Notes under the pieces: model-generated
The model's input: the letters and a program-made list of their open reading frames with translations, nothing else
Databases searched by the model: none
Told to the model about the DNA's origin: nothing
NCBI RefSeq assembly: GCF_000142905.1
Contig: NW_013657642.1
Location: 65,688 to 129,687, forward strand
Length of the DNA: 64,000 nt
From: Thecamonas trahens ATCC 50062
Lineage: Eukaryota > Protista > Apusomonadida
Direction: 5' to 3'
Shown here: one piece after another, positions 6,247-43,606 of the stretch
Numbering within the stretch: position 1 is the stretch's first letter
How the letters are laid out: the number at the start of each line of letters is the position of its first letter
Position numbers and translations under genes: made by a program

Positions 6247-7026
6247 CCCCACCAGAGAGTGTGGAGATTGTGGAGTAGAGGTGGTGGGGGGGGAGTTGGT
6301 AGAGTGGGTTGAGTGGGTGGCTGGTAGGGTGCGACAGCGGAGCTGGGGAGGGCGGTAAGGTAGAGTCGGTGCGGTGGGGTTGGGCCGAGTACCACATCAA
6401 GGCGGACACACAGCACACTACCACCACCAACATGACCACAACCTGCCCCGACAACAAGACATCAATCTTTCCTGATCAAGCCTTCCATTCGCCCTACAAC
6501 AACAACATGACAAGCCATCTATCTTTCTGATCAAGTGATCAAGCCATCCATACCCCCCCTCACCCCCGCTCACCCTCCCTCACCCTCCCCCCCCCCATCT
6601 GCCACCTCTGACGTCTTCAACCTCCTCTGGTTCGCTGAAGGTGGCCCCGATTCCAGCAGTGTTCCGGCTACAGCATTTGATTGAGTTGCACTACGTGTGT
6701 ACGCAGCGGTGTCGTTCGTTGTGGGTGAAACAGAGATGCCTGTGCTGCAAGCAGGTGGGCGTGGTCAATGTGCAATCCCCAGGTCGTTTCTCGCACCACC
6801 ACCATCCCCCCCCCCCCCCCCCCTCCTGTTCTGCCATTGTTCCCCTTCCCCTCCACCTCTCCCAGTTTTTTCTCCCCCTGTCCCTGTCCCCACTTGTTCC
6901 GCACTCGCTGCAGTACGCCCCTCCCCCTCCCCCCTCCCCCCTCCTCCCGCTCCTCCCTTCTCCCTTCTCCCTTCTCCCTTCCCCTCCACTAACCCACCCA
7001 CCCACCCCCTCCCATGGCTGTAGAGT

Positions 7027-10000
7027 ATGGGGTTCAACCTGGGCAACGAGGCCATTGCCGACCAGTCAGGCTCCTTCTCCAACTGGTCCTTCTTTGAGCT
7101 GTATCTCGAGTTTGGCTTTGTGGCTACTTTGTTTGGTGCGGCTGGCCTCCTGATTCTGCACTATGGTCTGCGGTACAAGGTGACCCGCATCAAGTCCTTC
7201 CTCGCTATGGCTCTACTTCGGGATGATTGGTGGTTTGACAAGTTTGCCACTCTCTTTGCTGCCATTGTTGCTCTCGTCTACATCGGCGTGCCTGTGGCTG
7301 GCATGGTGGCTTGGGGCCTGGCTGCCGCAATCGAGCTTGATCCGTCCATTGTTGGCGTCACCGTCATCCTCCTCTCTCTTGCTCTTGCTTCCGGCTGGTA
7401 TGGGTTTGGTCTCTGGCGCGCTTCGGGCTGGCGACTGACCTACCCGTCTGGCATTGCTGTCGGCGTCTGCGTCGCCATGATCATGGCCTTTCAGCTTGGC
7501 GTCATCACCGCCACCGAGCCGTTCTCGTACATTGGCTTTTCTGCTGTCTTCCTCTCGGTCAACGCTGTGCCCATGGTCATCATTCTCTACCTCAACATGC
7601 CCGGGACGTACATCCACTTTGAGACCTTTGTCGACGCAGTGGTCAAGGGCGCCGCCTCGGATGAGGCGGCGCCCAAGAAGCGGTGCTTTGGCTGCTGCGG
7701 CCCGCGGCTGAGCCAGAACCAGGTCCGCTCGTTTGCCCTCTACTTTGTGGCGCAGGGTATGCTCTGTGCGTACGCCATTCTCGTCCTCACTCTCATCGAC
7801 GACTCGACGGTCAAGTACGTCGGCTTTGCCAACTGGGGAGCTCTCCTCATCATCGACATCATTCTGTTCATGTACTACTACGCCGGCTTTTTCCGCTCCG
7901 CGCTCCGCGCCTCGCTCTTCTTCATTGCCGTCCGCGGCATCATCATCGGCTTTGGCGCGCGGTACTGGTTCATCGCCCACTCGGTTGTCTTTGTCCTTGT
8001 CGCCCTCTTCCTCGGCATCTCCTGGGTCCTCGATCACTACCCGGCCCGCAAGTCGTCGGGCTCGGCCGTCGTCGCGCACGAGTCGCTCGCCCGCGTTGTC
8101 CTCGACAACCTGCCCGCTCCCGACTTTCTCTCGCTCGACGTCCCGTCCGACATCAACTCGTCCGACTTTGGCTCGTCCGATCTCGGCGGCGGCATGGTCC
8201 GCGACGCGAGCGAGAGCTCGTCGGGCGCCGGCTACGACACCGAGTACGAGGACGACGAGTACGACGCTGACGACGATGAGTACGACGCTGACGAGTACGA
8301 CGCCGAGTACTCGGAGGAGCAGGAGGAGGCAAAGGCCAAGGCGCCATCCACCTACTCATCGGACAACACCTACGAGACGTACGACGCCGAGTATTCGAGC
8401 TCGTCCTACGGGTATTCGGCCGCTCCTGCAACTGGCTGCTGCCGGTCGAGCCGCTGCCAGGACATGTCGTGGCGAAACCTCATCCTCACCCGGCCGTTCC
8501 TCATGTTCATGATGTCTGTGGCGTTTGTGGCCGAGGTTGTGTTTGTGGCCAAGAAAGAGGAAGCGACGCGCGACATGAAGTTCCTCGACAAGCGCCGCGA
8601 GCAGTATCTGTTTGGCATCGGCTCGATTGTCATGTCGCTTGTCCTCCCGCTCGCCTTTCTCACCTACCGGCTCTTCCAGCGAGCCAAGTTTTTCATGACG
8701 CCGTCGGTTGCTGCCGCCGCCTTTGCCACCGAGTTTGTGGTTGTCGGCAACGGTGTGTTCTTCTACTACACCACCGATTCGATTGTTGTCCTCGGCTTCC
8801 ACATCTTCACCCCGCTCATCATCATCTTTGCCGCGCTCACCATGGTCCAGTGGATCCGCAACGACTACTTTTTCCTCTCGTCGTCTGACGACCGCGAGGC
8901 CGCCGGCGACGACGCGCTGTGGTTCTGGCTCCTCCCGCGCGACTGGCTCATGATCTTTGGCACTCTCGCCACGCTCCTCATGATTCTGGGCCTCTCACTG
9001 GTGGTTGCCCTCGGGCTTGACGCCCAGATCACCGGGTGGACCATTGGCCTTGTCATCTTTGTCCCGCTCTGCACCTTTATCTCGATCAAGGAGTGGTTCA
9101 ACACCTTTACCTTTTCGTGGACCAACGGCGTCTCGGTTGTGCTTCAGATTGCGGCGCTCCTCGGCTATGCGCTCGGCGTCTTTACCACCACCCTCGACTC
9201 CAAGGTCGACGAGCGGTCGCTTGCGCTCCTCTTCCTCGTGCTTGTCTACCCGACGCTTGTGCTCCTTGTGGTGGGTGTGTGGAAGTGGCATGACGACAAG
9301 TGGCAGTTCCGCCTGCGGAGCCAGTCGGGCGCCTTTATTGCCATCTCGCTCATCAGCTCGTTCCTGCTCATGGTCGGCTTTGGCGTGGTCGTCATGCTGG
9401 TGTACAAGCCGTTTTGGGCTGGCCTTGGCGTCCTTGTCGTCGTGGGCATCTTCTACGCCCTCGTCTGGGTCGGCATCTCGTTTGTCCGCAACTCGTACTA
9501 CCTCACCCGGCCGTACCGGTTGGCTGTGAGCGTGGTTCTCTGCGGCGCGGTTGCGCTGGGCCTCGGCGTTGCCTTCACCGAGGCGGGCTTCCTCGGCTTT
9601 TGCATCTCCTGGGGCTCCATTTTTGTCATGCTCGTACTTGTTGCGGTCCAGGACTGGTTCAACGCCCGCAACACCCCGCGCCAGTTCTCCAAGTTTATTT
9701 TCCCGGTCTACAAGCTCGACGTCGAGACAGGCCGGCTGACCTCGGCGTCCAAAGGCGTGTACTGCGCGTACGGTGCGCTGGTTGTTGCTGCCCTCTGGGG
9801 CGTTGCGGCCGCTCTCTTCTTCCCGCCGCCTTGGGTCGGCCTTCTCGTCACCGCCGCCGCCGTCACCTTTTTCATTCTCCTCACCGTTCATCTGCTGTGG
9901 GATCCGCCGGCCACGTTTGGTGCCCAGCTCCGATTCATCTCGGCCGACACGCTGGAGGCTGCCCGCTCCAAGGCCAAGGGCCTCGAGTTGGTCGACACTG

Positions 10001-12164
10001 TTGGCGAAGCTGACCGCGGAAGTGCTTCCAGCAGCTCTGGTGGCGGCGACGACGAGTACGACGAGTACAATGACGACGACGACGACGACGACGAGAATGA
10101 CGGCGAGGAGTACGGCTCGTACGATGAGGAGCAAGAGGCGCGCTACGGCACCTCGTCCGAGACGTACGACGAGTCAAGCCCGTCGAGCGGCTACCGATAC
10201 GACGCCGAGTCAGCGACGGTGACGATGGACGCGGCAGGGCGCTTCCTGCGCGCTGACGGCAGCGCGGCGAGCTGGCGCGAGATTGTGGCCGAGCGGCGCG
10301 AGTTTGAGGCCAACGAGCTCGGCTCGCGCGACTCGTACCTTGAGTTGCTCCGGTACGACGCGGCGATCAAGGCAGCGTTCAAGTCTGAGCTGCGGTTTGT
10401 GGCGCACATGCAGCAGCTGACGCTGGTGCTTGCGCAGGCAGAGCGGACCAAGGAGGAGGCTATCATCTCGGCCATGATCAAGGAGACCGACGAGTACAAC
10501 GACCCCGAGTACCCGCTCACCGCCAGCGCGATCGAGCGGTGGGGTGACGACGAGTGGGCCGAGTTCCAGGAGCGGCTGACGGCGTACCTGGCCAAGCTTG
10601 AGATGCGGCGGCGGCGCGATGACGACCGGCGCAAGGAGGACTCGGAGGCGCAGAAGAAGCGCGACGAGGCGCGGCGCAAGATGCAGCGCGAGCTCGAGAA
10701 GAAGCGGCGGAAGGGCAAGGACGACGACGAGTACTCGGAGCTCGGCGCTGACGTTGGCCTCTCGTTTGACCCGCGGACAGCGCCGGTCATCGGCTCGTCG
10801 CCGGCCAAGCTGATCAAGAAGGCCAGGCGAGCGGGCGAGCCGTGGTCAGACGATGACTTCCCAGCCGACGACTCGGTGCTGTTCAAGTCCAAGACCAAGT
10901 GCGCCGGGTGGATGCGGCCTGAGGAGATCTACGAGGCGCGCAACGGCGACGAGCCGGGCGACGGCGAGATCGAGGTCTTCCAGGCCGACGGCATCAAGCC
11001 ATCGGACATCCGGCAGGGCTCACTCGGCGACTGCTGGCTTCTCTCGGCTTTTGCCATTGTTGCGCAGTACCCGGAGCGGGTGCAGGAGATTTTCGAGACG
11101 GACGAGCCGAACGAGGAGGGCGTGTATGGGGTCAAGCTGTGGGCTGGCGGCAAGTGGACGCGGGTCATTGTCGACTCACGCTGCCGGTCATGGCCAACAG
11201 CAAGCCGCTGTACGCGCACACCGGCGACGGCGATGCGGCGGAGCTTTGGGTCATGATTCTCGAGAAGGCGTTTGCCAAGATGTACGGCTCGTACAAGGCG
11301 CTCAACGGCGGACTCGTTCACATGGGCCTCGTCGACATGACGGGCGGCCAGTCGGAAATGGTCGAGTTCCGCAAGGAGGAGAACGAGGCCGACGTGCGGT
11401 CCGGCAAGGTGTGGAAGAAGATGCTCAAGTACCGCAAGGCCAAGTACCTCATGGGCTGCGGCTCCAATGCAGGCAAGGATACGCAGACGTCCAAGAACAA
11501 CATTGTCCAGGGCCACGCCTTTGCCATCCTCGATGTGGTCGAGGTCGACGGCCACCGGCTCATCAAGCTCCGCAACCCGTGGGGCAAGGTCGAGTGGACC
11601 GGCGACTGGAGCGACAAGTCGCCGCTGTGGACCCGCCGGCTCAAGGCCAAGCTCGGGTGGGTCGATGCCGACGACGGCGAGTTCTGGATCTGCTACGACG
11701 ACTTTGTCCGCGAGTTCCGCAACCTCTACGTTTGCCGCCTCTTCCCCGACTCGTGGCATGCCACCGGCATCGCCTCGCAGTGGGACGCAGAGACCGCTGG
11801 TGGGTGCGTCAACTACGACACGTGCAAGGACAATCCGCAGTTCCTCCTCAAGGTCTCGGTCCCCACCGAGGCCTTTGTTACCCTCGCCAAGGACATGCTC
11901 AACAACGAGGTCGAGCACATTGCGTTCTCCATCTACCACACCAAGGACGCATCGTCCAAGATCGACCCGCAGTACGCCCGCTCGGGCGACCGTGTCGCCA
12001 CCTCGGGCAAGCTCTCGTCCCTGCGCGAGGTCTCGTGCGAGACCAAGCTCGCTCCGGGCAAGTACATCATCGTGCCCACCACTTACAAGCCCGGCCAGCT
12101 CGGCCGGTTCGTCATCGCCATCCACTCGAACAAGGCGCTTAAGCTGACCGAGATTGAGGCGTAG
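7027..12164 (+). CDS. DEK1-like large transmembrane calpain (about 23 TM + CysPc + C2-like domain III); frameshift near 11180; a short upstream exon via intron 6783-7023 is possible
   Basis: About 23 hydrophobic segments by eye. Catalytic triad QGSLGDCWLL / GHAFAI / LRNPWG; EKAFAKMYGSY; domain III (W...TAGGC, NPQF, REV, GKYIIVPTT). The two ORFs join as VIVDSR-LPVMAN if one C is restored. Confidence 0.9.
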
Positions 12165-18924: not shown

Positions 18925-21489
18925 TTACGACGAAATCGATGAGTCTGAGACAGAGTCGTAGGTGTAGTACGCCTCGATGCCCGAGTCCTCGTCCGAGGCC
19001 GCAGCGGGGACAAGCGCACCAGCGCGCCGCAGACGGGTCTCGTTGTGCTCGCCGTAGCGTGGGCCGCGCCAGAGCGGAAGGACCTGATGGCCCTTGTGCG
19101 AGCGGAACTGCCTGCGGAAGACGCCGTCGGCACCCGAGTCCGAGGTAAATGATGAGTACGACGACTTGTCGGCCGGAGACTGGAAGATCTCGGCCGTGGT
19201 GTCGTCGAGGACGCCAAGAAGAGTGGCAAAGAACGCGAGGCCGACCATGATGTACAGGCAGACAAAGATCTTGGACGGCGTCGAGTTGGGCACAATCTCG
19301 CCGTAGCCAATGGTCGAGAGAGTGACTACCGAAAAGTATACCGCAGTCCCATACTCACCCGACTGCTGGATCGGTGGATCCTGCAGCTCCATGAAGATGG
19401 CGGCACCAACAAGATTGAGGATGACAAAGGCGAGCGTCATGACCAGAACCTTGGTGGCAAGCCGCGCGACCTTGCGCCGCCACACTGCCCGCACCGCGGC
19501 CTTTTCCTCGTCCTCGGCCCGCTGGATGGCACGGATGGCGGCGATGGCGCCGGCAGCCGCCTTGCTGGACTTAAATCTTGGCGCCGCGGCGCTCGATCCA
19601 CTCTCACCCGCTTCCCCGCTTTCCGATGTCGGCGTAAAGCCTGACGCCGACGACAGACACGGGCTTCTCGAGCCCGAGTCAGAGTACGATTCGTGCTGCT
19701 CGTCATAGGTAGAATCGGGCGGGGCCTCCGAGTCGGCGACCTTGAGCGAGCGCTCAAAGTCGCGGATGCGGGCGTCGCGCTTCTCCTGCAGCTCAAACTG
19801 GGCCTCGTCGACCTTGGACTTGGAGATGATGGCGATGGTAATGGAGACAATGAAGGTGCCGAGGACCGAGTAAACAATGACAAAGCCCTTGGTCCCGTCG
19901 TTGGTCGGCACAAAGTCGCCGTAGCCGACTTGCGAGAGGGTGATGAAGCAAAAGTACACGCCGTCACCCCAGGTCCACTCAGGCTCGTTGAGGTAAATGA
20001 GCGAGCCGAGGAGGACTGAGACGGCGAGGACGGCGACGGCGGCCATCATGTGGCGAAAGAATATGCCCGATGGGCCATACCAACACGCGCAGCACGGCCG
20101 TGAAGCGGCGCGGTTGTTGGCCGCGTCGATGTCGTCCTGGGTCAGCTTGCCGTGCAGCGCGTCGGCCGACGTCACGTACGAGGCTGCCGTCCGGGTGAGG
20201 ATGGCGTTGGAGACGACGCCGATGGCGTAACCGCGCGCGGCAAGGCCAAGAACGGTAAAGGGGATGAAGAGTAGCCGCGAGTTGTCCTTGGTGGGTGCAA
20301 AGTCGCCAAAGCCAACGGCGTTGACGGTGACAAACGCCCAATAGATGCCGTCAAAGTAGCGCCAGTCCTCGATGAAAGAAAAGATGGCGCCGCCGATGAG
20401 GACCGAAGCTGCCGAGAAGAGGACTGCCATGGTCGGCTCGAGCGCGTTGGAGACGAGTGAAGAGAGCAGTTGGCGGCCGGCATAATCGTCCATGACCGGC
20501 AAGTTGACCGCGCCGATGACCACGACCTCGATGCACGAGGTGCCCGGTAGGCAGCGGGCCGAGAGGTGAAGGGTGGGCGGTCCGGTAGTGAGCGGCTCGA
20601 TGTCATCATCAAGCACAATGCGAGCCTCAAAGTCGCGCCACTCGGGCGCAACGTCGGCGACGGCGAGAAAGGCAAAGCCGATGCGGTCGTCGGCGTTGGC
20701 CACGTCGTAGTCGAGCACTTCAAACTCAAGGATCAGCCCCGCATCGTCAAAGGCTGGTGCCGCCTCGTGCTGCTGGACGGCTAGAGCGTCGGTGTCGACG
20801 ACCCACACCTGATTCCACAGCGGATGGAGCGAGCGCGGGACGACGGGTGTTTTGTATGCGTGGCGGGCGCAGGGCGAGCACCACTCGAACCGCGGCAGGC
20901 AGCACGGGCCACCAGGCATGGCACAGCCATTGCGGCCTGCACATGCCACAGGCTCGTTCCGCAGCTGGACATAAGGATCGGCGGTGCCTGCCTCGGCGAG
21001 GCGGGCAACAACATTGTTGACGCGACGAGCAGAGGCATCGGCAATGATGGTGATGAGTAGCGAGAGAATAGCCAGGCCAAGCATGCCTACAAAGACGACT
21101 GTGGCCTGGCCACCAGCAGAGGTGGGGAAGATATCACCGTAGCCAACCGTGGTAAGTGTGGCCCAGGTAAAGTAGATGGCATCGAGAGTGGAGAGGTCCT
21201 CAAAGTTGGCGACGAGTGCGGCGGCAATGACGACGACAGCGACGAGTGTGACGACAAAGATGATACGCTTGCGGTAGAAGGGTGTATGACGAGCATCATG
21301 ATGGCGATGTACACCATGGATGTGTCTGTGATGGAAGTGGAACTCTCCATCAGCATCCACATACTCATCGTAGGCTGACGAGTACGAGCACGAGAACGAC
21401 GACACTCCGCCCAGCCTGCTCTGCTGTCGGCTCTTGTGACCGCCCTGCATCAGCGCCTTGGCTGCTCCGTAGTTCTGGTACCACGCCAT
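18925..21489 (-). CDS. Potassium channel with four tandem TM-pore-TM domains and a permuted C2 domain
   Basis: Four filter motifs (TTVGYGD, NAVGFGD, SQVGYGD, STIGYGE), each flanked by TM helices. C2 motifs lie between pores 1 and 2. ATG at 21489. Confidence 0.9.
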   Translation of the reverse strand: MAWYQNYGAAKALMQGGHKSRQQSRLGGVSSFSCSYSSAYDEYVDADGEFHFHHRHIHGVHRHHDARHTPFYRKRIIFVVTLVAVVVIAAALVANFEDLSTLDAIYFTWATLTTVGYGDIFPTSAGGQATVVFVGMLGLAILSLLITIIADASARRVNNVVARLAEAGTADPYVQLRNEPVACAGRNGCAMPGGPCCLPRFEWCSPCARHAYKTPVVPRSLHPLWNQVWVVDTDALAVQQHEAAPAFDDAGLILEFEVLDYDVANADDRIGFAFLAVADVAPEWRDFEARIVLDDDIEPLTTGPPTLHLSARCLPGTSCIEVVVIGAVNLPVMDDYAGRQLLSSLVSNALEPTMAVLFSAASVLIGGAIFSFIEDWRYFDGIYWAFVTVNAVGFGDFAPTKDNSRLLFIPFTVLGLAARGYAIGVVSNAILTRTAASYVTSADALHGKLTQDDIDAANNRAASRPCCACWYGPSGIFFRHMMAAVAVLAVSVLLGSLIYLNEPEWTWGDGVYFCFITLSQVGYGDFVPTNDGTKGFVIVYSVLGTFIVSITIAIISKSKVDEAQFELQEKRDARIRDFERSLKVADSEAPPDSTYDEQHESYSDSGSRSPCLSSASGFTPTSESGEAGESGSSAAAPRFKSSKAAAGAIAAIRAIQRAEDEEKAAVRAVWRRKVARLATKVLVMTLAFVILNLVGAAIFMELQDPPIQQSGEYGTAVYFSVVTLSTIGYGEIVPNSTPSKIFVCLYIMVGLAFFATLLGVLDDTTAEIFQSPADKSSYSSFTSDSGADGVFRRQFRSHKGHQVLPLWRGPRYGEHNETRLRRAGALVPAAASDEDSGIEAYYTYDSVSDSSISS

Positions 21490-21717
21490 GGTGGTGGTGG
21501 GGTGGGTAAGGTGGGTGTGGGTGGGTGTGGGTGGGTGGGGGTAGCCCCGGAGGGGGGGGGGGGGGGGCGGACAAGCGACGATGGTGTCTGTCTGGCAAAG
21601 TGCCAAGTGCCGATCCCGTCCCAGCCGTCCGTTGCCTGGCAGCCCACAACCACAGCCTCCTCCTCCCCCTTCTATACAACATACCATCTGACTCTGCAGT
21701 AGGTGGCCTCTACGAGC

Positions 21718-23772: not shown

Positions 23773-25119
23773 TTACTTGAGGGGAGCAAAGCCGACGCGC
23801 GAGTTGCCGTTGTCAAAGGCGGTGTAGACGGTGCCGAGGAAGACGTCGCCAAGGATGACGAGCTCGCCGATCTGGGGCGGGAGAGCAATGCCCATGATGC
23901 CGGAGATGCACTCAGTCTTGCCCTCGGCGGAGATCTGGAGGACGTACTGCTCGGCAGTGAGGGTGAAGACCTGGCCGTTGAGGGTGACCTCCATCTTGGG
24001 CATGGTCGGGATCTTGGAGCACTGGACGATGGCCTCGCCGGTCGGGAGCGGGGTGGCGCCGATGGCAGAGTTGAACTCGGCAGCCATGGCCATGGGCATG
24101 GCGATGAGCGAGGTACCGGTGTCGGCAATGCCGTGGACGTTGGTGGCGATGGTCTTGCCGTTGACGGTAATCTTGGGCAGGGCAAACTCCCAGTAGGTCT
24201 GGTTGGTGAGCGGGACCCAGTGGAAGTCACCGGCCTGGTACTTGGAGTCGTAGCCGCCAAAGGTGATCTCACCGCCGACAGTCGCGTTGACGTCGCGCGA
24301 GAGGTACACGCCAAAGACCGGCTCGTCGATGAGCTTCTGCGAGACCATGTTCTGGAACGGCGGGACGACGCCGTCGACAGCAATGGTCGGCCAGGCGAGG
24401 CCGAGGATGCCGTCGGCCTTGGCCACGATAAAGGTGATGCCCGGGAAGTGGGTGGCCTCGGCGAAGGTCTGGCCCTTGACGGTGAGCCCGGCAATGCCAA
24501 GGTCATCCTCAGAGAGGAAGCCCGAGAGCGAACCCTTGCCGTACTGGATGGCAAACGACTCGCCGTTGGCCTTGTACGTCGACGACTTGCCCGAGTTGTA
24601 CTTGTGGTGCAGGTCGCACGCGAGCTCGGTGATCTTGCACTTGGACGACGGAACCCAGAGGTTCGACGAGCCAGTGTCGAGGATGACGGTAAAGTCCTGC
24701 GCCGGCGTGCCGAGAGAGATCGGGCCGTAGTACTGCGCGTCCTTGTAGTCGGTGAGCGGCTCGTTGGCGCCGGTCAGCCGGGCGGTGTACCGCTGCGAGA
24801 GGTATGCCTGCGCCTCAGAGAGCACGCTCCGCTCCAGCTCGTGGCGCGGGAACAGCGGCATCTTGTGCACAGCCTATCTCCCCGCCTTCTGTGTGAGTCT
24901 TCTCCGCCATGACAGGTCTCACTCCACTCAGGTCGCCTACGTCACGTGACATGCCGTCGATCCCTCCGAAAAATAGAGGCAGGACAAAAAAGGGCGGCGG
25001 GGGGCAGAGTGGGGGAAGGGGAAAGGGGGGAGCGGGGGTGGGGTGGGGTGGATGGTGGTGCATACCGAGGCCGAGGCCACGAGGGCAACAGCAACAAACA
25101 CGAGAACAGCAAGCTTCAT
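23773..25119 (-). CDS. Cathepsin D-like aspartic protease (pepsin A1 family); exons 25119-25066 and 24873-23773
   Basis: Signal-peptide exon MKLAVLVFVAVALVASAS, then an in-phase GT..AG intron 25065-24874. DAQYYG, two DTG motifs (DTGSSNLWVPS, ADTGTS) and ILGDVF. Confidence 0.95.
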
Positions 25120-25458
25120 GTTGTGTGGGGGTTAAGTGTGTCACACTAGCCCTTGACGGTACGGTCGTTCGGACGCGTTGTCGCCCGCCTCAGAGTGAAC
25201 AACCCGACGACGCTTGACTTGCAGGTCACCGGCCGACGCTGCGCGACGCCTGCTTGGCCTGCGGCTTGAGGTGGGAGGCGCGCCCGCACGTGGTTGCTCT
25301 CGCGGTGACGGACGCCTGGAAGCATCGAGGTGCCGTACGGCGCCGATCCGGCGATGTGGGTAGGGAAGGGGTGGGGGGACGCATCGGGTGCGGCAAGAGG
25401 TGGTGTCGTCGATTGCGGTTATTTCAGAACGGGGAGAGCGGAGAGAGGGCAAGGGCAA

Positions 25459-25785
25459 TCAGTCGAGCTCGGCTCGGGCACAGACGCCATCGAGGGCGGC
25501 GGTGTCGTGGAAGATGGCGGCCATGGCCACCGCGAGGGTGTTGAGCACAGCCGGCGGGCCGTAGACACACATCATGCCAGCCTCAGGATCGTAGTCCAGC
25601 TCGTCAGCCTGGCCAGCGGCCAGCACATCACCTGCCACCACCTCGGCCACCGCCGCCCAGTCGTAGCCGTTCCCCAGCGCGCCGTGGCCCTCGAATACAG
25701 GTGTGCGGACCATAAACTGGCTATCAGTCAGCATGAGGCACGTTGTCCCCTCAAACTCGTTCATGACAAAAGGTGCGATGCTCAT
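25459..25785 (-). CDS. Immunity protein 51 (Imm51)-like, bacterial type
   Basis: 108 aa, intronless. IAPF, GNGYDW, DYDPEAGMMCVY and terminal RAELD match my recollection of the Imm51 consensus. Confidence 0.8.
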   Translation of the reverse strand: MSIAPFVMNEFEGTTCLMLTDSQFMVRTPVFEGHGALGNGYDWAAVAEVVAGDVLAAGQADELDYDPEAGMMCVYGPPAVLNTLAVAMAAIFHDTAALDGVCARAELD

Positions 25786-26099
25786 GTGGGGCTGTGCACG
25801 ACAAGAGATGTATGCCCAACCCTATTGCGGTCGTACCAATGGAAGGTCCCCCCCCTTTCCCCCGCACTCCCTCCCCCGTCAACCAGATCCCGGCCATCAA
25901 GCCACCATCGCCCCCGATCATACACACACACAAATATATATATATACATAAGCACATACCTGTAGTAACCCTGCAGTCGATCAATCCATCCAGACAGCGA
26001 CCGATGACCAACGAGCCGACCCACGAGCCGAACGATGACAAGCCGACAGAGAGACGGAAGGAGCGGGTACTTGTCGTCGTCAACTGAGCGGAGGGCAAG

Positions 26100-27101
26100 A
26101 TGTTTCGGACAATGTTCGACTCTGACGTGACGACGTTCTCGCCCATGGGACGTCTCCACCAGATCGAGTATGCACAGGAGGCAGTGAAGCAGGGCGGTGC
26201 TACCCTCGGGCTGCGGTCGGACGAGCATGTGGTCATTGCCGGTCTTCTGCGGCAGACCAAGAAGCTCTCTGGCCACCAGCCGAAGCTGTTTGTCATTGAC
26301 GACCACATGGCGGTCTCCATTGCCGGCCTCACCGCCGATGCCCGTCTGCTCATCAAGTACATGCGCACAGAGTGCCTCAACAACAAGTATGTCTTCGACT
26401 CGCCGCTCCAGGTCGCCACCCTCGTCGCCGACCTCGCCGACAAGGCCCAGTCACACACCCAGGACTATTCCTCACGCCCCTACGGCGTCGGCCTCCTGGT
26501 CGCCGGCTACGACGTACGTTCTCTCCCTCCTCTTCATCCCTCCCCTCCCCTCCACTCCACCCCCTTCCCTTCCCCTTCCTCCCACTTGCCCTCCCCTCCC
26601 GCTGCCTTGGTCGCCCGGCCCAAAAACAGGTCGCCTTGCACCCGCCACACACCACACACCGCCACCACCACTGCCACTCACCCCCACTACCCCCACCCCC
26701 CACCCCCCACCCACCCCCTCCTCTCGTACGAGTAGAAGTCGGGCCCGCATCTGTTTGAGACCTCGCCATCTGGTTCGGCGTACGACTTTCGGGCTCAGGC
26801 CATCGGTGCCCGCTCCCAGTCTGCTCGGACCTACCTTGAGCGCCACTATGAGACGTTTGCTGATGCCTCGCTCGAGGAGCTCATCACCCATGCCCTCACT
26901 GCCCTGCGCGAGACGGCGGGTGACACCGAGCTCACTGCTGAGAACGCATCCATCATGATTGTTGGCAAGGACACGCCGGCCCACGAGCTCGCCGCCGACG
27001 ACATCGCCGCCCGTCTGGCGGCCCTCGGTGGCGGTGCTGCTGCAGAGGACGACGCCGCTAACGACGACGACGAGGGCACCAACGAGAACCCGAACGCCTA
27101 G
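26100..27101 (+). CDS. PSMA1: 20S proteasome subunit alpha type-1 (alpha6); exons 26100-26513 and 26736-27101
   Basis: MFR..DSDVTTFSPMGRLHQIEYA, RPYGVGLLVAGYD | KSGPHLFETSPSG...AIGARSQSARTYLER. Phase-0 GTACGT..TAG intron. Confidence 0.95.
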
Positions 27102-27153: not shown

Positions 27154-28647
27154 CTACAGCTTAAAGATGAAGCCGAGTCCCATGGCAAGCTCGTGGCTCG
27201 GCCGCGCCAGCGAGCCCGACGCCACCGCCGCCACAGTCACCGCCGGCGAGAGCTTGGCCCACACCGCCACCGCAGCCTTGCCGTCGGTGTCGACCCGTGC
27301 CTTGAGCTTGGCATCGCGCGAGACTGACAGCTCGGCGCCGATCTGAAGCAGACCCATCGGGAGGACCGGAAACTGGCTCGCCAGCCACGACGGCGTCGCT
27401 GGCTGGGCTGCCTCTCGCTGTGGCTTGCCACCTCCGCCAGCCTTGTTGCTCGCCGGTCGCGCCTTGCCGCCTCCGGCTTGCCGCGGCTTCTCGACCACAA
27501 ACTGCGAAAAAAGCTTGAGCCGCGGCATCGGTGTCGCCACCGTCCGGAACCCGCCTTGCACCACCTCGCCGTTGGCCAGCGCCACAAAGGTGTAGTGCTC
27601 CGCTCGCTTGTCAAGCCAGCCAAGCGAGACCTCGGCCTTGGCCGGGAACCACGATGCCGACGCCGCCACCGCCGGCGCGCCGGATCCGCCCGTTGCGCCC
27701 TCGCCGCCTGTTGCCGCCCGCCACACATCGGCGTGGCCCGCCACGCCAAGGACCAGCGAGTGCGAGTCAACTGAAACGTGGTCGTGCGCCATCGCCGTGC
27801 CGTCGGCCGCCCGCCGCGCCACCAGCCCCACAAGGCCCTCGGCAAAGACCGAGGCTCTTCTTCCGCTCTCAACCTTGGCCGTGATTGAGCCGTTGGCATC
27901 AGCGCCGTGGGCTGTCATCGTCGCCTGGGCCTTGAGCTGACCCTTGGCGCCCGGCGCCTTGGTCGCAGCAAACGGCAGCGACGACAGCGCCATCGTCGTC
28001 GCAACCGAGACCGTCACGCCCTTGGCCAGCTCCGACCGGTACTTGGCCTCGAGCCGCAGGCCGTGCGACTCGTGCCCGGCCTTCATGTCGCGCGCAAGCA
28101 CAAAGGTTGCGCCCGAGCCGGCGTGGTAGAGGCTACTGGATCCGCTCCACCACCTCGCCGGCTGGCCCGGCTTGGCGCTGCCGTCGTAGTGCAAGCCACC
28201 AATCGAGACAAGGCCCGATGGCCGCGGTGGCTTGCCGCTCCTCTCCTCGTCGCTCTCGCTGCTCTCATTACCCGCCGCTTTGTACGTGTGCTTGACCTTG
28301 AGATCGGTCTTGAGCGCCGGCTTGCGCGCTGCAATCGAGGACGTCAGCGCCACGTCCGCCGTCGGCCCTGCCTTGCCGGTCACCGTCGCCTTGACCATGC
28401 CTGATCCCGCAAACCCCTTCTTGAAGAACTCCTTCACCGAGTTTGCCAGCTTGCTCGCCATCAGCGCAGGCCGCGGCCGAGGACCCTTCTTCCCATCGCC
28501 GCCGCCCTTCTTTCCCCGGCTCTCCGGCTGTCCACCGCCTCCCGCCCCACCGTCACCAGCTGGCACACCACCGTCACCAGCTGGCACACCACCGTCCGCC
28601 GCCTCGCGAACACTGTCAATCTTGATGCGCTCCCGTAGTGTCTCCAT
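27154..28647 (-). CDS. Divergent VDAC/porin_3-family beta-barrel protein with long insertions
   Basis: LANSVKEFFKKGF resembles the VDAC N-terminal helix. The C-terminus DAKLKARVDTDG...KLSPAVTV...HELAMGLGFIFKL resembles the last VDAC strands and beta-signal. Confidence 0.65.
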   Translation of the reverse strand: METLRERIKIDSVREAADGGVPAGDGGVPAGDGGAGGGGQPESRGKKGGGDGKKGPRPRPALMASKLANSVKEFFKKGFAGSGMVKATVTGKAGPTADVALTSSIAARKPALKTDLKVKHTYKAAGNESSESDEERSGKPPRPSGLVSIGGLHYDGSAKPGQPARWWSGSSSLYHAGSGATFVLARDMKAGHESHGLRLEAKYRSELAKGVTVSVATTMALSSLPFAATKAPGAKGQLKAQATMTAHGADANGSITAKVESGRRASVFAEGLVGLVARRAADGTAMAHDHVSVDSHSLVLGVAGHADVWRAATGGEGATGGSGAPAVAASASWFPAKAEVSLGWLDKRAEHYTFVALANGEVVQGGFRTVATPMPRLKLFSQFVVEKPRQAGGGKARPASNKAGGGGKPQREAAQPATPSWLASQFPVLPMGLLQIGAELSVSRDAKLKARVDTDGKAAVAVWAKLSPAVTVAAVASGSLARPSHELAMGLGFIFKL

Positions 28648-42814: not shown

Positions 42815-43040
42815 AAACCCGTTCGTTCGTCCAAACCCGTTCGTTCGTCCACGCGAAACCCGTTCCTTCAACCCGTTCCTTCAACCCCATCCCGTTCGAT
42901 CAACCCGTTCGATCAACCCGCTCCTTCATCCCGTTTGATCAACCCGCTCCTTCAACCCGCTCCTTCATCCCGTCTGATCATCCCTTTCGTCCATACCGCT
43001 CCTTCATCCCACTCGTCCCACTCGTTCATCCCGTTCCCTG
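42815..43040. repeat. Degenerate tandem repeats (AAACCCGTTCGTTCGTCC x2; TCAACCCGCTCCTTCA-type units)
   Basis: Directly visible next to the TA tract. Confidence 0.75.
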
Positions 43041-43076
43041 TTCGGTGAGTCCGCCCGCCCACCACAACCCGCCCGC

Positions 43077-43078
<2 letters not shown>

Positions 43079-43164
<86 letters not shown>

Positions 43165-43362
43165 CTATATATATATATATCTATATATATATATGTACAT
43201 ATCTATATGTATATATATGTATCTATATATATATATATATGTATATACGTGTATATATATGTCTATATATATATATGTATGTGTATATGTGTATATATGT
43301 ATTTTTATATATGTATATATGTATGTATATATATATGTGTGTATATTTGTATATATCTATAT
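43079..43362. repeat. Long degenerate (TA)n microsatellite running into an assembly gap
   Basis: Directly visible. Confidence 0.95.
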
Positions 43363-43462
43363 NNNNNNNNNNNNNNNNNNNNNNNNNNNNNNNNNNNNNN
43401 NNNNNNNNNNNNNNNNNNNNNNNNNNNNNNNNNNNNNNNNNNNNNNNNNNNNNNNNNNNNNN
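43363..43462. other. Assembly gap (100 N)
   Basis: Run of Ns; the true gap size is unknown. Confidence 0.99.
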
Positions 43463-43606
43463 CCCCCCCCAGCCCCGTCACCTTCCCGCCAGCCGCTCTC
43501 CCGCCGGGCGCCTGCCACTCACCACAGACCAACCTTCGGTGAACGTTCTTCCACGCACGCAGACGGCGGCACCCTCGACTCGAGCGCGCCGGCACTGGAC
43601 CTGGAG

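What the first reader, a model, noticed from the sequence alone, without database searches (positions are those of the whole stretch)
25459..25785. Bacterial polymorphic-toxin immunity gene (Imm51-like) in a eukaryotic chromosome
Seen: a compact intronless 108-aa ORF between two intron-containing eukaryotic genes (cathepsin D-like and PSMA1), with host-like GC-rich codons and no neighbouring toxin. Known: the motifs IAPF, GNGYDW, DPEAGM.C.Y and terminal AELD match Imm51 as I recall it, a family described from bacterial toxin-immunity loci. Inference: a horizontally acquired, domesticated orphan antitoxin that may protect a bacterivorous protist against toxins from its prey. It is co-oriented with and just upstream of a lysosomal protease gene, which may be coincidence.
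Basis: partly seen in the sequence, partly recalled or inferred. Interest (0 to 1): 0.8.

Follow-up and report, generated by a model that had tools for sequence, protein, structure and literature searches.

The report
Bacterial antitoxin-family gene in a protist
A small gene of the bacterial Imm51 toxin-immunity family sits among ordinary spliced genes of a single-celled eukaryote, likely picked up from bacteria long ago and possibly kept as a decoy against bacterial toxins, a kind of transfer already reported in gut fungi and amoebae.

Summary
25459-25785 (-) encodes 108 aa that match Pfam Imm51 over nearly the whole model (56.8 bits, cut-off 29.8). It lies between a cathepsin D gene and a proteasome alpha gene, both shown spliced. 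Contigs from three environmental DNA studies carry it, and overlapping pieces link it to the proteasome gene and to a host repeat, so contamination is unlikely. Every homolog with an organism name is bacterial (best about 45% identity). Codon use is host-like and the family's core residues are kept, which points to an old, retained transfer; no donor is resolved. A spliceosomal intron in the 5' UTR is a candidate only. There is precedent: Imm51 in the gut fungus Caecomyces, PoNi in gut fungi, and at least 13 immunity families moved to eukaryotes. Verdict: a real horizontally acquired gene, a new member of a known kind, function open. Interest 0.38.

The parts
25459..25785 (-). Imm51-family coding sequence, 108 aa, no intron in the CDS, acidic (net charge -13 per 100 aa)
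25792..25959 (-). Candidate 168-nt spliceosomal intron in the 5' UTR (CAG|GTATGT donor; acceptor AG 6 nt before the ATG). Predicted only; a plus-strand intron of the neighbouring gene is a rival reading
25786..26099 (.). 314-nt head-to-head spacer between the Imm51 ATG and the proteasome alpha ATG; inferred shared promoter region
   Evidence: covered by overlapping contigs of X8, X6, X1, X7
25150..25330 (.). Dispersed multi-copy host repeat between Imm51 and cathepsin D; other copies join at TTAA, this one at CTAG; right end approximate; no sign that it carries the ORF
   Evidence: (depth tables and loose ends)
23773..25119 (-). Cathepsin D-like aspartyl protease gene, intron 24874-25065 seen spliced (flanking host gene)
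26100..27101 (+). Proteasome alpha subunit gene, intron 26514-26735 seen spliced (flanking host gene)

Best explanation
This is an intact Imm51-family gene lying among spliced host genes of a microbial eukaryote, likely acquired long ago from a bacterium as a stand-alone gene, and predicted to make a small acidic cytosolic protein that would bind and block a bacterial nuclease- or RES-type toxin reaching the cell. Shown: family, location, intact frame, host-like codons, kept core residues. Inferred: bacterial donor, old age, selection to keep it. Untested: expression, toxin binding, protection. If it protects, it would do so as orphan immunity genes do in bacteria, against toxins made by other cells.
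For: Family; ESM Atlas 29 of 30 feature hits Imm51, structure TM 0.88 to an Imm51 model; confident compact alpha+beta model, pLDDT 96.7. In the genome: X6, X7, X8 (three studies) hold the ORF with 0-2 differences inside it; X8 piece 25747-25916 overlaps X1 25880-26178 and X6 25885-26046, and X7 25960-26258 reaches into the proteasome gene; X6 25319-25635 and X1 25263-25606 cross the 3' end. Bacterial origin. Amelioration: codon score 0.084 bits/codon, at the host median 0.087 (115 segments); reached by 2 of 87 bacterial segments, 0 of 19 GC3-matched and 2 of all 59 bacterial Imm51 genes. Kept residues: 28 of 37 conserved columns (median 30 among 159 homologs), all 7 columns at 94% or more. Weak sign of constraint: 5 differences in 140 nt of spacer against 0 in 177 nt of ORF on one X6 contig, p 0.016, two of them recurring in X10. 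Imm51 is predicted to pair with Tox-RES and Tox-URI1 and occurs in polyimmunity loci (PMC3482391). 4 of 51 related loci have other immunity domains beside or fused (Imm26, SUKH twice, Imm-NTF2-2), and 2 of 12 further loci sit in RHS toxin tails. Orphan immunity proteins can protect against non-cognate toxins (bioRxiv 2023.06.18.545353), and bacteria use T6SS effectors against amoebae (PMC8632748).
Against: No tested function for any Imm51 in the papers found; the preprint calls it a predicted family. No cognate toxin for the query-like group: 0 of 51 loci have a polymorphic-toxin domain next door; neighbours are mostly housekeeping genes such as lepA, asd, homoserine dehydrogenase, sulfatase. 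In the two RHS loci another ORF stands between toxin and Imm51. At about 45% identity to its nearest relatives a specific binding surface may have drifted (inference). In V. cholerae the anti-amoeba effector is distinct from the antibacterial ones, so antibacterial immunity may be of little use to a predator. Other transferred immunity domains (SuFu, SUKH, myosin VI cargo-binding domain) took host roles. Expression is not shown. One gene in one species gives no dN/dS.
Confidence: 0.4

Rival explanations
1. The gene was acquired from bacteria and is kept, but it binds a host or other non-toxin partner. The stand-alone Imm51 group it came from may itself not act in toxin immunity.
For: Relatives mostly stand alone beside housekeeping genes. 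SuFu, SUKH and the myosin VI cargo-binding domain are published cases of immunity domains co-opted by eukaryotes (PMC3482391). Long end branch in both careful trees (0.95 and 1.89).
Against: The family core, including the acidic DPE and GYDW motifs, is kept and the protein has gained no eukaryotic domain or extension. No host partner is suggested by the data.
Confidence: 0.33
2. It is a silent or nearly neutral passenger: a real insertion that has not yet decayed.
For: No supported eukaryotic orthologue was found. Expression is not shown. -3 position before the ATG is C, where both neighbours have A.
Against: Host-like codons imply long residence, over which an unselected 327-nt frame would be expected to break (inference). 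Core residues are kept. Environmental copies are intact, with fewer changes than the adjacent spacer on one contig. A GC-rich unsampled donor could mimic part of the codon signal.
Confidence: 0.2
3. The family is old in eukaryotes and was inherited vertically, then lost in most lineages.
For: Identity to bacteria is under the 70% that the PoNi preprint cites as excluding differential loss. The tree resolves no donor. The protein collections are prokaryote-heavy and do not hold the full-length protein itself.
Against: All organism-named homologs are bacterial. PMC3482391 lists only bacteria for Imm51. The one other eukaryotic report is a single gut-fungus genus.
Confidence: 0.04
4. It is bacterial DNA joined into the assembly by mistake.
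For: No single piece spans from the ORF into either neighbouring coding region; the link to cathepsin D passes through a multi-copy repeat.
Against: Contigs of three separate environmental studies cover the ORF together with both flanking genes, and cross both ends of the ORF into the host-type spacers. Codons are host-like. No bacterial near-match exists among 1.84 billion representatives (best non-self 42-43%).
Confidence: 0.03

Closest known systems
Imm51 (Pfam PF15595), predicted immunity family of bacterial polymorphic toxin systems (Zhang et al. 2012, PMC3482391)
   Same: Full-length match above the curated cut-off; alpha+beta fold; W and Dx[DE] signature kept (W43, D66-P-E68).
   Different: Eukaryotic host, no toxin and no other immunity gene in the 64-kb window; that paper's table lists no eukaryote for Imm51.
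Imm51 homolog AWI67025.1 of the gut fungus Caecomyces
   Same: Same family reported in a eukaryote as a bacterial acquisition.
   Different: Gut fungus, one genus, known from transcriptome data; here a marine microbial eukaryote with the genomic setting shown. I did not retrieve that sequence, so whether the two transfers are independent is untested.
PoNi (DUF1911) in Neocallimastigomycota (bioRxiv 2020.10.15.341461)
   Same: Orphan bacterial toxin-immunity gene on native eukaryotic DNA, proposed to protect against bacterial toxins.
   Different: PoNi has a tested bacterial function, over 70% identity to a Ruminococcus donor, four genera and polyA transcripts; this gene has none of these.
SUKH, SuFu, Imm-MyosinVICBD, Imm13 (Naegleria), barstar-like domains in dictyostelids and Naegleria
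   Same: Immunity domains moved from bacteria to eukaryotes; at least 13 types, mostly to fungi and amoeboid cells.
   Different: Different families; several are known to have taken host roles unrelated to toxins.
Orphan immunity genes of bacteria
   Same: Immunity gene without a cognate toxin; cross-protection is shown for RdnI and Tdi1.
   Different: Those are bacterial and were tested; this one is eukaryotic and untested.

Membership tests
Imm51 (PF15595) | Profile match above the curated cut-off over most of the model | tested here: met
   56.8 bits against 29.8; positions 9-103 of 104
Imm51 (PF15595) | Conserved W, Dx[DE] and hydrophobic core in an alpha+beta fold | tested here: met
   W43, D66-P67-E68, F31, G40, Y41 kept; model with three main strands and four helices; TM 0.88 to an Imm51 model
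Polymorphic toxin-immunity pair | Immunity gene directly downstream of a cognate toxin gene | tested here: not met
   Neighbours are cathepsin D and a proteasome subunit; no toxin domain in 38 window ORFs. The rest of the genome is not held.
Polymorphic toxin-immunity pair | Binds and neutralises a toxin domain | not testable with these tools
   No cognate toxin found to model; needs a bench assay
Bacteria-to-eukaryote horizontal transfer | Gene lies on native eukaryotic DNA in independent data | tested here: met
   Overlapping contigs from X6, X7, X8 (three studies) and X1; spliced flanking genes. No single spanning piece.
Bacteria-to-eukaryote horizontal transfer | Nested with support inside a bacterial clade | tested here: inconclusive
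   All named relatives are bacterial, but no starred clade holds the query in trees of 111, 69 and 45 rows
Bacteria-to-eukaryote horizontal transfer | Absent from most eukaryotes | tested here: inconclusive
Domesticated gene | Host-like codon use | tested here: met
Domesticated gene | Expressed as a host transcript; gained introns | tested here: inconclusive
   Only contigs were available; candidate 5' UTR intron has a rival reading
Domesticated gene | Purifying selection across species | not testable with these tools
   No orthologue DNA; only a weak within-species hint

The most novel reading that the evidence does not exclude
A free-living marine protist has fully domesticated a bacterial orphan immunity gene, giving it host codons and a spliceosomal 5' UTR intron under a promoter shared with a proteasome gene, and uses it as a cytosolic trap for toxins that prey bacteria inject. 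That would be predator-side immunity borrowed from interbacterial warfare. A second marine copy (P0006 cluster, one member from a eukaryotic metatranscriptome catalogue) would make it recurrent.
Probability: 0.2. Interest if true: 0.72.

Novelty: new member of a known kind. Interest (0 to 1): 0.38.

Why it matters
Transfers of toxin-immunity genes to eukaryotes are known from comparative genomics, but the papers found here give no test of whether such genes still protect. This gene is short, intact and easy to express, so it is a convenient test case, and it would also give the Imm51 family its first tested function. If it protects, it shows that predators of bacteria can borrow defences from bacterial warfare. 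If it does not, it is one more case of an immunity domain kept or re-used by a eukaryote.

Tried and rejected
Expression. Four runs with RNA-like content were laid as contigs. X3 (spliced; cathepsin contig depth 349, proteasome contig 47) has no cover over 25338-26039. X5, X10 and X11 do not cover the ORF either; X10 has one unspliced piece 25286-25447 just past the stop, which may be DNA. Contigs show presence, not absence, so this is not counted against the gene. 8 of the 24 listed runs were laid.

Fold search. No PDB match by sequence profile at E under 0.01, none by Foldseek at E 0.001, best VIA-align Z 6.3 (rmsd 3.0, 75 aligned) to ACT-like domains, within the usual background. No mechanism can be drawn from this.

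Second eukaryotic copy. The P0006 cluster has a member labelled 'merc', the marine eukaryotic metatranscriptome catalogue. It grouped with the query at SH-aLRT 83 in a quick tree, at 94/45 with a long bacterial branch in a careful tree, and not as a pair once long rows were removed. Its nearest matches are other unnamed or bacterial proteins at 49-51%. The AU test did not finish. Its DNA could not be fetched. Left as a lead.

Donor. Not resolved in any tree; rows left out are given in the full report.

Cognate toxin. None found; no complex was modelled because there was no candidate partner.

Transposon cargo. No inverted repeat pairs the repeat's left end with the far side of the ORF among the 25 longest of 40 pairs shown, and only the repeat shows raised depth.

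Intron finder for the whole window missed both known introns and was discarded, so the base skew of host introns could not decide between the two splice readings.

No Rfam match in 24900-26200; no NCBIfam or PADLOC match for the protein; no phage match; one weak viral-contig hit; 17 Streptomyces plasmid records at 30-37%; no longer fused homolog passed the cut-off (weak test). Three look-ups of earlier findings returned nothing. No whole genome is held, so copy number of the gene family and toxins elsewhere in the genome are unchecked.

Full report
Observation. The minus-strand ORF at 25459-25785 encodes 108 aa. It matches Pfam Imm51 at E 2.3e-15, 56.8 bits against a cut-off of 29.8, over model positions 9-103 of 104. 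The ESM Atlas agrees: 29 of 30 feature hits are Imm51 clusters and the best structural match has TM 0.88. AlphaFold2 on a 30-row alignment gives a compact alpha+beta model, pLDDT 96.7. The N-terminus shows no hydrophobic signal peptide by eye, so a cytosolic location is inferred.

Setting. The window is GC-rich (most 1-kb bins 0.6-0.7) and gene-dense. The 38 ORFs scanned against Pfam give mostly eukaryote-type families (calpain, exportin, CAP-Gly, kinase, Leo1, ArfGAP and others) or nothing; none is a toxin domain. The neighbours are a cathepsin D-like protease, whose ATG is 339 nt past the Imm51 stop on the same strand, and a proteasome alpha subunit 314 nt upstream, head to head. Both have GT-AG introns seen removed in public runs (X3 for both, X5 for cathepsin). 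The host lineage was not determined. Runs that hold the stretch are mostly marine, estuary or subsurface. My guess of an apusomonad-like flagellate is recalled and untested, so 'bacterivorous' is an assumption.

Is it really there? X6, X7 and X8, DNA-like runs from three studies, cover the ORF along with both flanking genes. X7 25482-25807 and X8 25569-25741 and 25747-25916 have no differences; X6 has two pieces, one with 2 unlocated differences. X8 25747-25916 overlaps X6 25885-26046 and X1 25880-26178, and X7 25960-26258 and X1 reach into the proteasome coding region. X6 25319-25635 and X1 25263-25606 cross the 3' end. X1 may be the source sample and is not counted as independent. No single piece spans the locus, and the path to cathepsin D runs through a multi-copy repeat. 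That repeat is host DNA: its depth is tens of times that of the flanks in all four DNA-like runs. A chimera is unlikely.

Origin. Among 1.84 billion representatives, 94 score E up to 0.001; apart from a 101-aa copy of the gene itself, the top hits are 42-43% identical. A profile search gave 403 hits, 120 listed; 21 of these 120 carry an organism name and all 21 are bacterial. Named cluster members are Lysobacter, Pseudomonas, Collimonas and Methylomonas. The best BLAST identities are about 45%. Trees of 111 rows (quick), 69 rows (careful; the 62 best-ranked of 153 dereplicated rows plus chosen outgroups) and 45 rows (two long rows and the lower-ranked rows left out) place the query on a long branch in no starred clade. 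The donor is unresolved. The collections are prokaryote-heavy and lack the full-length protein, so absence from other eukaryotes is weakly tested.

Signs of domestication. A codon model from 24 long window ORFs (not all verified) was set against one from 23 Pfam-matched bacterial neighbours. The gene scores 0.084 bits/codon, at the host median of 0.087 (115 segments). Only 2 of 87 bacterial segments, 0 of 19 bacterial Imm51 genes of similar GC3 and 2 of all 59 reach that score. It keeps 28 of 37 columns conserved in at least 60% of 159 homologs (median 30), including all 7 at 94% or more; F72 is replaced by M. One X6 contig has 5 differences in 140 nt of downstream spacer and 0 in 177 nt of ORF (Fisher p 0.016; 0.028 if the 2 unlocated differences are put in the ORF). 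Its depth is low, but two of the five recur in X10. The upstream spacer is also nearly invariant, so this is a weak hint. Host-like codons with an intact frame and core suggest long retention under selection; that is inference.

Candidate intron. On the gene's own strand, CAG|GTATGT at 25959 and an AG 6 nt before the ATG bound a 168-nt G-rich, microsatellite-bearing stretch. AG|GTAYGY occurs 9 times on both strands of the window. Against it: the site lies at the edge of a GT/AT microsatellite, where such words arise by chance; both verified introns are C-rich on their own strand; and the plus strand has a donor-like GTATGC at 25810 before a C-rich tract, which could be a 5' UTR intron of the proteasome gene. 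I rate the minus-strand intron at about even odds. Expression is not shown; the RNA results are under Tried and rejected.

What the bacterial relatives say. Pattern scans gave 30 genome and 42 metagenome loci. I called ORFs in 59 of these 72 and scanned 96 ORFs from 51 loci against Pfam, then 16 more co-oriented upstream ORFs and 12 unassigned ones against NCBIfam. None of the 51 has a polymorphic-toxin domain next door. One has a PIN ORF on the opposite strand and one an AbiU2 HEPN gene upstream. Four have other immunity domains beside or fused (L009, L012, L025, L029). Most stand next to housekeeping genes such as lepA, asd, sulfatase or TelA; many neighbours have no family, so unknown toxins are not excluded. 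In even samples of two phyla, Imm51 was found in 8 of 401 and 6 of 401 genomes. Of the 12 new loci, 2 lie in RHS toxin tails, each with another ORF between toxin and Imm51, and 1 is near a SUKH gene. So the family does belong to the toxin-immunity world, but the query-like members are mostly orphans.

Mechanism. Best reading (0.40): an old acquisition kept as a cytosolic decoy for nuclease- or RES-type toxins. PMC3482391 predicts Tox-RES and Tox-URI1 as partners. Orphan immunity proteins can cross-protect, and T6SS effectors act on amoebae, although there the V. cholerae anti-amoeba effector is distinct from the antibacterial ones. Co-option for a non-toxin partner is nearly as likely (0.33), as for SuFu, SUKH and the myosin VI cargo-binding domain. 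A silent passenger gets 0.20, vertical descent 0.04, artefact 0.03. Real gene of bacterial origin, whatever its role: about 0.93.

What is known. PMC3482391 (passages, and part 1 of 2 of section 47; supplements not opened) says at least 13 immunity types moved to eukaryotes, mostly fungi and amoeboid cells, and lists only bacteria for Imm51. bioRxiv 2020.10.15.341461 (parts 1-2 of 3) describes PoNi in gut fungi and cites an Imm51 homolog in Caecomyces; PMC7142291 (one passage) notes the same. Passages only: PMC8120803 and PMC6397177 (Imm51 beside a Fusobacterium ADP-ribosylhydrolase), bioRxiv 2023.06.18.545353, bioRxiv 386110, PMC4053784 (nothing relevant), PMC8632748. Searches for 'Imm51' (4 papers), 'immunity protein 51' (6), a guessed host name with transfer and immunity terms, orphan immunity with protist, and domesticated antitoxin terms showed no report of this gene and no functional test of Imm51. 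The library lacks most subscription papers.

Verdict. The gene is real and of bacterial origin by the evidence at hand; it belongs to Imm51 but is not part of a toxin-immunity pair. It is a new member of a known kind of transfer, with an open and testable function. Interest 0.38; 0.72 if protection against prey toxins were shown.

Noticed in passing
window 25150-25330: Dispersed host repeat, depth tens of times the flanks in DNA-like runs. Other copies join flanking DNA at TTAA followed by CCCT, which recalls piggyBac-type elements (recalled, not tested); this copy follows CTAG. The spliced cathepsin D contig in X3 runs 34 nt into it, so that transcript may start inside the repeat.
   Followed up: partly
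P0006 cluster (P0097-P0100): A divergent Imm51 cluster with variable N-terminal extensions and one member from a marine eukaryotic metatranscriptome catalogue; may be another eukaryotic copy, not supported as sister to this gene.
   Followed up: partly
L003, L005, L035, L042 (also L033): Stand-alone Imm51 sits 58-66 nt downstream of lepA in several loci, two titled Hyphomicrobiales or Rhodomicrobiaceae; in L084 and L085 it follows dnaK. Suggests orphan Imm51 genes settle at housekeeping loci.
   Followed up: partly
window 7024-12164 (+): A calpain protease domain is split between two overlapping reading frames at profile position 111: frameshift, short intron or sequence error.
   Followed up: no
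window 18925-21687 (-): Potassium-channel-like protein with four Ion_trans_2 stretches and an internal C2 domain, an unusual architecture.
   Followed up: no
window 27154-28590 (-): Divergent ORF with a weak eukaryotic porin (Porin_3) match at its C-terminus, below the cut-off.
   Followed up: no
window about 42900-43500: Long AT microsatellite next to a 100-N assembly gap, with short tandem repeats upstream.
   Followed up: no
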